From contig JBAZSA010000001.1 in assembly GCA_041662645.1 (NCBI GenBank), positions 1-58,795 of the forward strand: 58,795 nucleotides of DNA. The letters run 5' to 3'. The notes beneath the pieces were generated by a model. The model saw only the letters and a list, made by a program, of their open reading frames with translations. It made no database searches and was not told the origin of the DNA. The DNA is from Desulfurivibrionaceae bacterium (lineage in GTDB: Bacteria > Desulfobacterota > Desulfobulbia > Desulfobulbales > Desulfurivibrionaceae). Numbering within the stretch: the stretch's first letter is position 1; every line of letters begins with the position of its first letter. A program made the translations under genes and the position numbers. Below, piece after piece: positions 54,782 through 57,648 of the stretch.

Positions 54782-55639
54782 TCAACGGTTTTTGTTACTG
54801 CGCATCTTGCGGAAATGCTGTAGGCCTGCGGCCGCCAGATAAACAAATCCTGCGATCACGATGATGGCCGGGCCGCTGGGCAGATCGAAGCTGTAGCTGA
54901 TGGCCAGGCCCGAGCCGATAAAGGCGATGCAGAACAGGGTGGCCAGCACCATCATCTGCCAGAGGCCCTTGGCAAGATTGCTCGCCACTGCCGCGGGCAG
55001 GGTCAGCAGGGCAATGACCATCACAATCCCCACCACCCGGACCAGCAGGACCACGGTCAAGGCAGTCAGGCAGAGGAGCAGCAGGTAGTACAGATCCGTG
55101 CGGACCCCGCGCAGCCTGGCATACTCCTCGTCAAAACAGACGGCCAGGAATTTATGGTAAAACAGGGTGGCTATTCCCACCACCAATGCGTCCAGCACCA
55201 GCACCATCCAGAGGTCAAACTCCGAGATCAGCAGGATATTGCCGAACAGGTAGCTCATCGGCTCGACATAGCCCGGGGTTTTGGCGATGAACAGCAAGCC
55301 GACGGCCATCCCGATGGCCCAGAGGGCGCCGATGGCCGTGTCTTCCCGCTGGTTGGCGTGCAGGCTCACCATGCCGATGATGATGGCTGCTAAAAGCGCT
55401 GCAACGATGGCTCCTGACAGGGGCCCGAACCAGGTGATGCCCAACTTGTGCTGGCAGTAAAGCCCCGCCCCGATGCCGCCGAGCACACAATGGGCGATGG
55501 CGCCGGCAATATAGGTGATGCGGCGGGCCACCACATAGGTGCCGATGATGCCGAAGGAGAGGCTGGCCAGGATACCGGCACCGAAGGCATAGCGCAGGAA
55601 GGGAATGGCCGGGTCGGCCAGGGCGTCAAGAAATTCCAT
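54782..55639 (-). CDS. znuB: Zn/Mn ABC transporter permease
   Basis: AIAHCVLGG, YLFGNIL, FDEEYA..G, VGIVMV..LLTLPA, PSGP. Confidence 0.85.
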   Translation of the reverse strand: MEFLDALADPAIPFLRYAFGAGILASLSFGIIGTYVVARRITYIAGAIAHCVLGGIGAGLYCQHKLGITWFGPLSGAIVAALLAAIIIGMVSLHANQREDTAIGALWAIGMAVGLLFIAKTPGYVEPMSYLFGNILLISEFDLWMVLVLDALVVGIATLFYHKFLAVCFDEEYARLRGVRTDLYYLLLLCLTALTVVLLVRVVGIVMVIALLTLPAAVASNLAKGLWQMMVLATLFCIAFIGSGLAISYSFDLPSGPAIIVIAGFVYLAAAGLQHFRKMRSNKNR

Positions 55640-56420
55640 GGTTGCAGTGTCCCTCGGGCGAGCAGCGGTGATCGTGGCGGATCATGCGGATGTCGCCGCC
55701 GTACATGTTGCGGATCAGCTCACCGGTCAGTTCGCTGGTGGGGTGGAGCACGACCTGGCGGTTGACGCAGACGATGCTTTTGAAGAACTTCGAGGCAAAA
55801 CCGACATCGTGGGTGACCAGCATGACGGTGAGGCGTTCGTTGAGCTTGCCGAGCAGCTTGAAGAGCTGCTCTTCCGAGGCGGCGTCGATGTTGGCCGTCG
55901 GCTCGTCAAGGAGAAGCAGTTCGCCTTCCGCGGCCAGCGCCCTGGCAATGAGGACCCGCTGCCTTTGTCCCCCGGAAATCTCTGCAAACAGGCGGCCGGC
56001 CAGATCAGCCAGCCCCATTTCCGCAAGGGCCGCCTGGGCAGCCTCCCGGTCGGCCTTGGCGTAAGCTCCGCAGAAGATCCGGTCCAGCCGGCCCATGAGC
56101 ACGACATCAAGCACCGTCACTGGAAACTGCGGATCGTAGCGTGCATACTGCGGCACATAGCCGATGCGCAACCGGCTTTTCTCCGGCGTTTGCCCCAATA
56201 CTTCGATCTCGCCCCGGTTCGGTTTGAGCAACCCGAGGATGAGCTTGAGCAGGGTAGTCTTGCCGCCGCCGTTTGGCCCCACGATGCAGAGAGAATCACG
56301 GGCCATGATATCCAGGGTGACGTTTTCCAGGATGGGTGCGCCATTGTAAGCGAAATCAAGATCCCGGATGCGGAGGGCTATGTTCTGTTTGCTGGTGGCG
56401 GACATGGGCTGTTCCTTCAC
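55626..56420 (-). CDS. znuC: Zn/Mn ABC transporter ATPase
   Basis: GPNGGGKTT, GYVPQ, ISGGQRQR, LDEPT, THD; His/Cys-rich tail HDHRC..HCNH. Confidence 0.88.
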   Translation of the reverse strand: MKEQPMSATSKQNIALRIRDLDFAYNGAPILENVTLDIMARDSLCIVGPNGGGKTTLLKLILGLLKPNRGEIEVLGQTPEKSRLRIGYVPQYARYDPQFPVTVLDVVLMGRLDRIFCGAYAKADREAAQAALAEMGLADLAGRLFAEISGGQRQRVLIARALAAEGELLLLDEPTANIDAASEEQLFKLLGKLNERLTVMLVTHDVGFASKFFKSIVCVNRQVVLHPTSELTGELIRNMYGGDIRMIRHDHRCSPEGHCNHGIS

Positions 56421-57322
56421 TATTTCAGTGACTGTCCGATGGCTGCGGCGATGGCGGCGAGATTGCGCAGCACCTCCTGGTCCAGTGGATCGATGGGCAC
56501 TACGGTTCCGTTGATGGCCTGGGCCACGGTGGCCCCGCTCTTGCTGTCGAATTGCGGTTGGACAAAGATGGTGCGCACCCGATCCTCCCTGGCTTGGCGG
56601 ATAAGGGCGCTAATCTGTTTCGGCGTAGGGGATTTGCCGCCGATTTCCACCCCTTTCTGTTTCAGGCCGTAGGCTTGGGCAAAATAGCCGAAGGCCGGGT
56701 GAAAAACGTAAAAGGTTTTGCCCCGGTACGGAGCAAGGGTGGTGGTCAACCGTTTGTCCAGTTCGTTGATCTCGCGCTGGAGGGACGCAAGATTTCTGTG
56801 CAGAGCCTCTTTGTGCTCCGGCATGGCGACACTCATGGCCGCCGCCATGTTGTCGGCCATGAGCCGCAGGTTGTCCGTGGCCAGCCAGAGATGGGGGTCT
56901 GCTTCGTTGCCGGAGTGCGCTTCCTTGGCATGTGTTTCGTGGTGGTCTTCCGCAAGGGGTAAACGGACGATACCCCGGGTGGAATCCACGATCCGCAGAT
57001 TGCGATTGTTGGCCGCGACCTTGGCAACCAGTTGTTTTTCAAAGGGGATGTCCACCGTGAAAAACAGACTGGCTCCGGCCAGGGCGGCTGCCTGCCGAGG
57101 GGTTGGTTCAAAGGTGTGCGGATCTTGCCCTTTGCCGACCAGGGTGTGCACCTCTACTGCATCGCCGCCGATTCTTTCGGCAAGATATGCCTGGGGCGGC
57201 ACGGTGACAAAGATCCGTGTCTTCGTCGTTGTTGGCGCGGCGAGGGCGCTGGGTGCCCATCCGGTGATGGCCAGGAAAAGAGCAGCGATTGCAAAGAATC
57301 TGGAAAGGTTCAATGCTGGCAT
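56420..57322 (-). CDS. znuA: Zn ABC transporter substrate-binding protein
   Basis: Signal peptide, DPHTFEP, His-rich loop [25 protein letters not shown]; start may be 57364. Confidence 0.85.
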
Positions 57323-57585
57323 GGATTTTCCGTGATCCCGCAGACGAGATGCACGGCCTTGCACTCATCACATTTTTGCAGGGAATGGGTGTCGAGAAAT
57401 TTTGCCCAGTGGGTGCGCTGTTCCGAGGTCAGAATGCCGGTTCCCTGGCAGAGCGGGCAACCGTTTTCCAGGGCGTTCAAGATGGCGTTTCTGATAAATT
57501 CGGATTTGTTGGGCACCGTATGCAGGGCTTTGGCCAGTGTTTCATCGGCCTTGAAGGTGATGGTTTCCAGTTTTTTATTGCGCAT
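57310..57585 (-). CDS. Ribbon-helix-helix (CopG-like) regulator with Cys/His-rich C-terminal domain
   Basis: ETITFKAD beta ribbon, [10 protein letters not shown] helix; [26 protein letters not shown]. Confidence 0.78.
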
Positions 57586-57619
57586 GTTTTTTCTCCGGAT
57601 GCGTAAATGCGAGAGCCTA

Positions 57620-57648
57620 ATCGTAATACAAAGTATTACTTGTGTAAA
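57620..57648 (-). promoter_or_regulatory. Sigma70 promoter with internal palindromic operator
   Basis: Minus strand TTTACA (57648-57643)-17 nt-TACGAT (57625-57620); perfect palindrome GTAATAC-aaa-GTATTAC at 57623-57639. Confidence 0.7.

What the first reader, a model, noticed from the sequence alone, without database searches (positions are those of the whole stretch)
54782..57648. Zur-independent metal-uptake control: RHH-zinc-finger regulator with a palindromic operator heading znuABC
Seen: the first gene of the overlapping regulator-znuA-znuC-znuB operon encodes a 91-aa ribbon-helix-helix protein with CPLC, CDEC, HLVC and CQH ligands. A perfect GTAATAC-N3-GTATTAC palindrome lies between the predicted -35 (TTTACA) and -10 (TACGAT), overlapping the -10. 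Established: ZnuABC is normally repressed by Zur, AdcR or DtxR-type proteins, and the known RHH metalloregulator NikR uses an ACT-like domain rather than a Cys finger. Inference: a distinct family of metal-activated autorepressors, with its operator identifiable here.
Basis: partly seen in the sequence, partly recalled or inferred. Interest (0 to 1): 0.8.

Follow-up and report, generated by a model that had tools for sequence, protein, structure and literature searches.

The report
New zinc-uptake repressor family and operator
A small DNA-binding-type protein with a cysteine-rich tail heads zinc-import-type genes in many bacterial phyla, and a 17-base DNA signal travels with it and marks metal-uptake genes even when they lie elsewhere in the genome, so it is likely an undescribed zinc-sensing repressor that works without the usual regulator Zur.

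Summary
Confirmed and extended. The 91-aa gene, znuABC and the palindrome are where stated. The N-terminus models as a ribbon-helix-helix (RHH). C43, C46, H59, H67, C72, C75 and C82 are invariant in 112 of 112 loci; the terminal CQH is not conserved. The operator is really a tandem of two self-symmetric heptamers, GTAWTAC-N3-GTAWTAC. It lies upstream of 107 of 112 regulator loci from about nine phyla (shuffles 3 of 1120), but of only 1 of 60 znuB loci in regulator-less genomes. 103 of 112 loci carry znuA or znuB and two carry ZIP transporters. Where the regulator is orphaned or the operon split, the site sits before the detached znuA, and also before TonB receptors and LbtU porins. Genomes with no Fur-family and no NikR hit keep regulator and operator, arguing against Zur or NikR as the binder. 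No description was found in eight literature searches. DNA binding, metal binding, repression and zinc specificity are inferred, not shown. Verdict: an apparently undescribed family of metal-uptake repressors, probably zinc-sensing, with a predicted operator and regulon.

The parts
57623..57639 (.). Predicted operator GTAATAC-AAA-GTATTAC: two self-symmetric GTAWTAC heptamers (57623-57629, 57633-57639) 10 bp apart
   Evidence: Sequence; only perfect copy in the genome; <=2 mismatches upstream of 107 of 112 regulator loci
57643..57648 (-). Predicted -35 hexamer TTTACA
   Evidence: Consensus scan (not above chance alone); TTTAC kept in same-genus relatives
57620..57625 (-). Predicted -10 hexamer TACGAT, overlapping the downstream heptamer by 3 bp; 17-bp spacer
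57593..57596 (-). Shine-Dalgarno-like GGAG before the regulator ATG
   Evidence: Sequence
57310..57585 (-). 91-aa regulator gene (P0001): RHH plus Cys/His domain
57463..57573 (-). RHH DNA-binding domain (residues about 5-41); ribbon T8-I9-T10-F11-K12, short helix A, NKSEFIR helix B
   Evidence: AlphaFold2 model; structural matches to AmrZ, PutA52, NikR, Arc, omega over residues 1-46; RHH_1 at E<=0.1 in 43 of 58 members
57340..57459 (-). Predicted metal-binding domain (residues 43-82): C43-x2-C46, H59, H67, C72-x2-C75, H79, C82
   Evidence: Seven invariant Cys/His in 112 of 112 loci, H79 in 99; weak sub-cutoff likeness of CPxCxGxG to DnaJ/anti-TRAP zinc knuckles; no fold match for the domain
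56420..57322 (-). znuA-type solute-binding protein with three-His site (H69, H144, H208) and His-rich loop
   Evidence: PF01297 E 1.7e-66; best NCBIfam AztC, ZnuA, all below cut-off; ligands conserved
55626..56405 (-). znuC-type ABC ATPase
   Evidence: PF00005; NCBIfam MntA/AztA-like below cut-off
54782..55639 (-). znuB-type permease
   Evidence: PF00950 E 3.4e-66

Best explanation
The 91-aa protein is likely a zinc-sensing repressor of an undescribed family: its predicted ribbon-helix-helix dimers would bind the two symmetric GTAWTAC heptamers one helical turn apart over the promoter's -10 region and would shut off its own operon and other metal-uptake genes when metal, probably zinc, fills the conserved Cys/His sites. 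Shown here: the gene order, the conservation of ligands and operator, and that the operator follows the regulator and the uptake genes. Inferred: RHH fold (model only), dimer-of-dimers binding, repression rather than activation, metal as corepressor, and zinc as that metal. Seven to eight conserved ligands per chain would allow two tetrahedral sites, plausibly one structural (a CxxC knuckle) and one regulatory; under zinc limitation the regulatory site would empty, cooperative binding would weaken and ZnuABC, ZIP and outer-membrane uptake would be made.
For: Operator (<=2 mismatches) within -300..+30 of 107 of 112 distinct regulator loci, 91 with <=1; shuffles 3 of 1120; other spacer lengths at most 17 of 112. 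All half-site orientations occur (central bases A/T 38, A/A 28, T/A 23, T/T 14, other 4 of 107), as expected if each two-fold RHH dimer reads a symmetric heptamer (RHH dimers assemble cooperatively on spaced sites, PMC3413123 passages). 103 of 112 loci hold znuA or znuB; 2 more hold ZIP genes. All 4 orphan regulators tested (L080, L092, L112, L122) have their genome's best other site in front of a ZnuA gene. In 6 of 8 genomes with listed sites where znuC or znuB follows the regulator directly, a detached znuA has its own site. 6 of 9 perfect secondary sites precede ZnuA, TonB-receptor or LbtU-porin genes, much like the Caulobacter Zur regulon (PMC4176598 passages). In regulator-less genomes 1 of 60 znuB loci and 0 of 17 close orthologues (ZnuB >=54% identical) have the site. 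A sister genus keeps the tatA|znuABC layout but lacks both regulator and site in 5 of 5 examined. The solute-binding proteins keep a three-His site (81, 92 and 91 of 92) and mostly a His-rich loop, the ZnuA pattern (recalled).
Against: No experiment: binding, metal content and direction of control are untested. The RHH match is weak in absolute terms (best Z 4.7, Pfam below cut-off). The C-terminal domain has no structural match and site geometry could not be examined. Loci L050-L129 were retrieved with the patterns N[KR]SEFIRxAI and CPLCQGTG and ranked by likeness to the query, so conservation of C43/C46 there is partly by construction, and about two dozen loci are close relatives. No classic zinc-starvation marker (COG0523, zinc-free ribosomal paralogues) turned up among the 35 secondary sites inspected. 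The TonB receptors score best against heme/hemoglobin-receptor models and the porins are named siderophore porins, and DtxR-type or VIT1 genes flank a few loci, so another metal is possible. About half of all <=1-mismatch sites may be chance (84 sites vs 45 for the reversed-pattern control, my sums), and 2 of 9 perfect secondary sites have no uptake gene nearby (L417, L418). A related subfamily with the same N-terminal two-thirds has neither site (0 of 71 with <=2 mismatches) nor znu genes (0 of 80).
Confidence: 0.7

Rival explanations
1. Same regulator and operator, but the sensed metal is not zinc (Co, Ni, Mn, Fe or Cu), or the Cys sites are a redox or rubredoxin-like iron sensor in these mostly anaerobic hosts.
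For: Cluster A-I binding proteins and ZIPs carry several metals (recalled); no NCBIfam zinc model reaches its cut-off and the ATPase scores best with MntA. TonB targets resemble heme receptors and the porins are LbtU siderophore porins. DtxR-type genes follow znuB in L082 and L100, VIT1 is divergent in L078. CxxC/RAPP-like leaders resembling copper-responsive CruR precede some targets.
Against: Three-His site with a His-rich loop in nearly all 92 binding proteins; best solute-binding-protein models are AztC, ZnuA and AdcA. NikR and PerR/Fur-type regulators coexist with their own targets in these genomes. Cys-rich tetrahedral ligand sets favour Zn(II) (recalled).
Confidence: 0.17
2. The protein is a metal-independent autorepressor that only buffers the dosage of the uptake operon; its Cys/His cluster is purely structural.
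For: Most RHH repressors (CopG, Arc, omega, antitoxins; one search matches) need no ligand (recalled). CPxCxGxG resembles the structural zinc knuckles of DnaJ and anti-TRAP. The type-B relatives keep the knuckle without any link to metal uptake.
Against: The site recurs before non-homologous, unlinked uptake genes (ABC, ZIP, TonB receptor, LbtU porin), and three orphan regulators lack autoregulatory sites; both are hard to explain without a signal. H67 and C82, invariant here, are not among the conserved columns of type B.
Confidence: 0.09
3. The site is bound by a Zur, another Fur-family protein or NikR encoded elsewhere, and the RHH gene is a passenger.
For: This genome encodes two Fur-family proteins and NikR. 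The half-site resembles the predicted deltaproteobacterial NikR half-site GTGTTAC/GTAACAC, and the flank TAATCGTAAT resembles the Gram-positive Zur box (PMC545781 passages). The genome is only 76.5% complete.
Against: G357 and G571 (100% complete) have no Fur-family hit yet keep regulator, site and znuA; G676, G642 and G645 likewise (completeness not given). 10 regulator-positive genomes have no NikR hit, and G357 and G645 lack both. nikR loci carry their own N13/N14 boxes and no N3 site above 10.1 bits. In a 99% complete congener the three Fur-family genes are two PerR-like and one Fur-FeoA-like fusion. The site is lost with the RHH gene.
Confidence: 0.03

Closest known systems
NikR (RHH nickel-uptake repressor)
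   Same: N-terminal RHH (structural matches 2ca9, 2bj1, 1q5v at rmsd 1.8 A; hhalign to this genome's NikR E 1e-4 over 30 columns); predicted metal-corepressed control of an ABC importer; a similar heptamer half-site.
   Different: No NikR_C (ACT-like) domain; a 40-residue Cys5/His2-3 domain instead; 91 vs 141 aa; half-sites 3 bp apart rather than 13-14 bp; shorter helix A; targets are ZnuABC/ZIP-type, and true NikR coexists in 35 of 46 genomes searched.
Zur (Fur family zinc uptake regulator)
   Same: Predicted regulon content: znuABC, ZIP, TonB-dependent receptors (compare PMC4176598 passages); operator over the promoter; probably structural plus regulatory Zn sites.
   Different: Winged-helix Fur fold versus RHH; no PF01475 match; different operator; small regulon (one site in most congeners) with no ribosomal paralogues or COG0523 seen.
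AdcR/ZitR (MarR family) and DtxR/TroR/MntR
   Same: Non-Fur repressors heading metal ABC operons (PMC6103462, PMC11672702 passages).
   Different: Unrelated DNA-binding folds; no match to those families.
MetJ, Arc, CopG, omega, PutA52, aCcr1 (RHH repressors on tandem sites)
   Same: RHH fold; best NCBIfam match aCcr1 in 51 of 58 members, below its cut-off for the query; tandem symmetric boxes read by cooperating dimers (PMC3413123 passages).
   Different: None of these carries a Cys/His metal domain or controls metal uptake (recalled).

Membership tests
RHH superfamily | N-terminal beta-ribbon followed by two helices | tested here: met
   Model pLDDT 85.5 with helices 15-22 and 27-41; top matches AmrZ, CopASO, PutA52, NikR, ArtA, omega, Arc over residues 1-46, rmsd mostly 1.5-2.5 A, Z 4.7 and below; RHH_1 E<=0.1 in 43 of 58 members. 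Modest scores on a 40-residue domain.
RHH superfamily | Intertwined homodimer binding DNA through the ribbon | not testable with these tools
   Needs biochemistry or a structure; alternating ribbon residues T/I8, T/S10 and K12 are conserved.
NikR | C-terminal NikR_C (ACT-like) nickel-binding tetramerisation domain | tested here: not met
   No PF08753 match for the query or among the listed families for 58 members; the genome's NikR is a separate gene.
NikR | Operator half-sites separated by 13-14 bp | tested here: not met
   Spacer 3 in 107 of 112 loci; spacer 13 or 14 in 5 and 8 of 112; nikR loci have their own N13/N14 boxes.
Zur / Fur family | Fur domain PF01475 (winged helix) | tested here: not met
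   No match.
AdcR (MarR) / DtxR | MarR or Fe_dep_repress domain | tested here: not met
   No match.
Zinc-uptake metalloregulator (functional class) | Operator on promoters of zinc-import genes | tested here: met
Zinc-uptake metalloregulator (functional class) | Zn(II) binding allosterically raises DNA affinity and represses transcription | not testable with these tools
   Needs EMSA or anisotropy, metal analysis and reporters.
DnaJ / anti-TRAP zinc knuckle | Paired CxxCxGxG motifs | tested here: inconclusive
   One CPxCxGxG plus a plain CxxC; Pfam 19 bits vs cut-off 32.7; PDB sequence hits E 0.002-0.014; no structural match reported for residues 43-82.

The most novel reading that the evidence does not exclude
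An undescribed family of zinc-uptake repressors, built from an RHH DNA-binding domain and a compact Cys5/His2-3 zinc-sensing domain, does Zur's job across at least nine poorly cultured phyla (Desulfobacterota, Planctomycetota, Spirochaetota, Bacillota, Verrucomicrobiota, Myxococcota, Hydrogenedentota, Sumerlaeota, FCB-group lineages), with a near-invariant operator GTAWTAC-N3-GTAWTAC and a regulon of ZnuABC, ZIP, TonB receptors and porins.
Probability: 0.68. Interest if true: 0.8.

Novelty: new variant of a known kind. Interest (0 to 1): 0.72.

Why it matters
A 2024 review lists Fur, DtxR, NikR and Rrf2 as the uptake-regulator families, plus rare TetR, MarR, LysR and GntR sensors (PMC11672702 passages); zinc import is assigned to Zur and AdcR (PMC6103462 passages). 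A 91-residue RHH-Cys/His protein would add a family and a second, independent way of coupling metal sensing to an RHH domain, with a metal domain that has no structural match here. Rodionov et al. 2004 noted deltaproteobacteria with znuABC but no Zur or Zur box and suggested 'another regulatory mechanism' (PMC545781 passages). This system is such a mechanism for some lineages; I did not test the species they named, and 51 of 60 regulator-less znuB loci have no nearby Fur-family gene either. The operator is specific enough to discover metal-uptake genes in uncultured phyla, including unannotated outer-membrane and membrane proteins. Protein and site are small enough for a direct test, and could serve as a compact metal biosensor.

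Tried and rejected
(1) Homodimer-plus-zinc complex prediction gave no verdict (score 0.20, mark 0.42); not used as evidence either way. (3) Extra sites in this genome: none above the shuffled range; the next hits lie near enolase, perR, pth and an unannotated gene; most congeners have one site. (4) Simple displacement of Zur: only 9 of 60 regulator-less znuB loci have an adjacent Fur-family gene and two of these (L198, L210) group with PerR-like proteins; a genome-wide anti-correlation with Zur was not established, because Fur-family hits were classified for only 20 of 94 places listed and for none. (5) RNA evidence: four sludge metatranscriptome runs of one study hold contigs of relatives (mostly 90-99% alike) across the operon; contigs cannot show strand, level or start, so nothing is concluded. 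(6) No match on plasmids. (7) ESM Atlas gave only unnamed 'CopG family'/hypothetical clusters; database names are generic. (8) Four look-ups of earlier scan findings returned nothing. (9) Weak genome hits dropped before counting: G237 and 21 rows at E>1e-5 (partial matches, nearly all in ~500-aa frames). (10) Regulator tree: too few columns to infer transfer or origin. (11) Type-B relatives were checked as possible members and set aside. (12) Literature: searches listed no paper describing this family or operator; I saw listings and abstract starts only, except passages of six papers; subscription journals and databases such as RegPrecise were not searchable, and no supplements were read.
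Full report
1. The observation. The minus strand carries a 91-aa ORF at 57310-57585, then genes for a ZnuA-family binding protein (56420-57322), an ABC ATPase (55626-56405) and an ABC-3 permease (54782-55639). GTAATAC-AAA-GTATTAC is at 57623-57639, between TTTACA and TACGAT (17-bp spacer), overlapping the -10 by three bases. It is the only perfect copy in the 2.47-Mb, 76.5% complete assembly. In this genome alone neither the promoter (3 found, 2.0 expected) nor the site (one of three shuffles reached 26.7 bits against 27.1) is beyond chance, so the case rests on comparison.

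2. The protein. No curated family reaches its cut-off. There are 43 close homologues and 389 representatives at E<=0.001 among 1.84 billion. With a 58-sequence alignment AlphaFold2 gives pLDDT 85.5, pTM 0.48: extended N-terminus, helices 15-22 and 27-41, helix 54-66 and a hairpin. The wide structural search returns RHH proteins (AmrZ, CopASO, PutA52, NikR, ArtA, omega, Arc) over residues 1-46, with Z 4.7 at best, and little else. RHH_1 matches 43 of 58 members at E<=0.1. In 112 genome-derived sequences F11, K12, N26, S28, F30, I31, R32, C43, C46, H59, H67, C72, C75 and C82 are invariant; H79 is in 99, C89 in 22 and H91 in 46. The retrieval patterns included NxSEFIR and CPLCQGTG, so those columns are partly selected. 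H59, H67, C72, C75 and C82 were not in the patterns and are also >=90% conserved in the HMMER-derived alignment.

3. Distribution. 39 real hits among 251 genomes of the order (one spurious row dropped), 23 of 24 in the same genus and 0 of 9 in a sister genus; 25 strong hits among 401 genomes of the phylum (21 weak partial rows dropped). One copy per genome in 30 of 30 checked.

4. The operator. I examined 119 loci, 112 after removing duplicates; about two dozen are close relatives of the window. 107 of 112 have GTAWTAC-N3-GTAWTAC with <=2 mismatches within -300..+30 of the regulator start, 91 with <=1; shuffles give 3 of 1120; spacers 0-2, 4-6, 13 and 14 give at most 17 of 112. Each heptamer is itself symmetric and all orientations occur (A/T 38, A/A 28, T/A 23, T/T 14, other 4). 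The unit is therefore a tandem of two symmetric boxes 10 bp apart, which fits two cooperating two-fold RHH dimers (PMC3413123, passages). A sigma-70-like promoter scoring >=9 of 12 was found near 66 of 107 sites, with the -10 starting inside the operator in 63 (no shuffle control); overlap in several registers with normal spacers suggests steric repression rather than MerR-type activation (inference). Five loci, all Bacillota-labelled, have a second site 22-24 bp away.

5. The operator follows the regulator and the uptake genes. 103 of 112 loci contain znuA or znuB. Of the other nine: one is truncated, two have ZIP genes directly downstream (L096, L105), two have an unannotated protein (L089, L124), and four are orphans. 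In all four orphan genomes the best site other than the regulator's own is in front of ZnuA (L270, L401, L402, L403); three of these regulators have no site of their own. A scan of 55 carrier genomes at <=1 mismatch found sites in 47 (84 sites against 45 for the reversed control, my sums; 18 rows were not listed). I fetched all 35 listed sites away from the regulator and scanned a chosen subset of their ORFs: 12 of 35 precede annotated uptake genes (6 ZnuA, 1 ZnuB, 3 TonB receptors, 2 LbtU porins), including 6 of the 9 perfect sites. Several more precede unannotated secreted or outer-membrane-like proteins; two perfect sites (L417, L418) have no uptake gene, and most weak ones lie inside genes or before unrelated ones, as the control predicts. 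Where znuC or znuB follows the regulator directly, a detached znuA carries its own site in 6 of 8 genomes with listed sites (G303, G456, G498, G523, G555, G676; not seen in G508, G592). Conversely, in 80 genomes without the regulator I fetched 60 of 65 permease loci: none reaches 16 bits, 1 of 60 has a <=2-mismatch site near the first gene, and 0 of 17 close orthologues do. The sister genus keeps tatA divergent from znuABC but lacks regulator and site together in 5 of 5 examined.

6. Not Zur, not NikR. The genome encodes a PerR-like Fur beside rubrerythrin, a longer Fur-family fusion at 27085-27855 and NikR beside a cbiM/nikM-like gene. A 99% complete congener has three Fur-family genes, none grouping with the znu-adjacent Zur-like proteins. 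Two 100% complete carriers have no Fur-family hit (G357, G571), three more of unstated completeness likewise, ten carriers have no NikR hit, and G357 and G645 lack both, yet all keep the site. nikR loci have their own N13/N14 boxes, matching PMC545781 (passages). The likeness of the heptamer to the NikR half-site is probably shared ribbon chemistry (inference). A clean anti-correlation with Zur was not shown: only 9 of 60 regulator-less loci have a neighbouring Fur-family gene, two of them PerR-like.

7. Which metal. For zinc: three-His site in 81, 92 and 91 of 92 binding proteins, with three or more His in the loop in 76 of 92; best models AztC, ZnuA, AdcA; ZIP/ZupT targets; a regulon resembling Caulobacter Zur's (PMC4176598, passages); Cys-rich ligands (recalled preference). 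Against: no model above cut-off, heme- and siderophore-named outer-membrane targets, DtxR-type and VIT1 neighbours in a few loci, CruR-like leaders, and no zinc-free paralogues or COG0523 among the sites seen. I put zinc at roughly four in five given a metal sensor.

8. Mechanism. Shown: anatomy, conservation, co-occurrence. Inferred: two RHH dimers occupy the heptamers over the -10; metal in the Cys/His domain (seven to eight ligands, perhaps one structural and one regulatory site) stabilises the DNA-bound state; metal loss derepresses the regulator and importers. The dimer-plus-zinc prediction gave no verdict and is not used.

9. A related subfamily. Type-B proteins (120-150 aa, ribbon AVVAFKV, extra C-terminal CxxC) lack the site (0 of 71 with <=2 mismatches) and znu genes (0 of 80) and often precede a PLP-dependent decarboxylase (6 of 7 scanned). 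They are not counted as members.

10. Novelty. Sources label members 'hypothetical', 'CopG family' or 'ribbon-helix-helix domain-containing'; one JGI label reads 'metal-responsive CopG/Arc/MetJ family transcriptional regulator', a generic name. Eight searches (listings and abstract starts) showed no paper on this family or operator. Passages of two reviews name only Zur and AdcR for zinc import and NikR as the RHH metallosensor (PMC6103462; PMC11672702, first 300,000 characters). Subscription papers, RegPrecise and supplements were not seen. It works like Zur or NikR but fails membership of both, so I file it as a new variant of a known kind, interest 0.72.

Noticed in passing
L320-L399 (metagenome contigs); alignments A3, A4: A second subfamily (type B) of the same RHH + CPxCxGxG protein with an extra C-terminal Cys domain lacks the operator and znu genes and often sits directly upstream of a PLP-dependent decarboxylase. 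Its targets are unknown.
   Followed up: partly
L410:1557-1991, L412:2064-2450, L416:1608-1994, L424:1590-1994, L427:1710-1991: Small His-rich ORFs with CxxC and a C-terminal RxPP-like end lie between the operator and TonB-receptor or putative outer-membrane genes; they resemble DUF2946/CruR arrest-peptide leaders (PMC9426467 passages) but did not hit Pfam at E 1e-4. Possible second, post-transcriptional layer of metal control.
   Followed up: partly
L089:2691-3491, L124:5179-6036: An unannotated protein family (shared HAPFTLAG motif, no Pfam or NCBIfam hit) directly follows regulator and operator in two planctomycetes in place of znuABC: candidate new metal transporter.
   Followed up: partly
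L416:306-1574, L422:2221-2496, L423:2522-3979, L424:26-1558, L431:2253-3992, L415:2292-4016: Unannotated signal-peptide-bearing proteins beside operator sites; candidate metal porins.
   Followed up: partly
L419:2926-3867, L420:2-850, L415:1-558: ArsP_1 (PF03773) permeases follow the detached, operator-bearing znuA genes.
   Followed up: no
L078, L081, L101, L096, L098: Bacillota-labelled loci carry two operators 22-24 bp apart; three have a divergent VIT1/rubrerythrin-like gene (Pfam checked for L078; the others by likeness), perhaps an oppositely controlled exporter.
   Followed up: no
L082:8009-8506, L100:8027-8521, L413:2428-2991: DtxR/MntR-type regulator genes lie right after znuB or beside an operator site.
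   Followed up: no
window 27085-27855 (+): Fur-family domain fused to a C-terminal extension that looks FeoA-like (my reading, not scanned); conserved in congeners and other families.
   Followed up: no
window 48707-54721: Cluster of a Tat-exported molybdopterin oxidoreductase with small cytochromes, a SoxA/TsdA-type cytochrome c and two membrane cytochrome c genes, converging on znuB; probably sulfite/thiosulfate oxidation.
   Followed up: no
window 57808-58279 (+): Two tandem tatA genes divergent from the regulator, followed by a strong terminator-like hairpin at 58312-58348; the tatA|znu layout is kept in the sister genus that lacks the regulator.
   Followed up: partly
P0045, P0064: Proteins with a tandem duplication of the whole regulator unit (185 aa and a 125-aa fragment), consistent with an oligomeric working form.
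   Followed up: no
L427:725-1513, L433:143-973: Operator sites upstream of prepilin-type N-terminal cleavage proteins in two planctomycete genomes.
   Followed up: no
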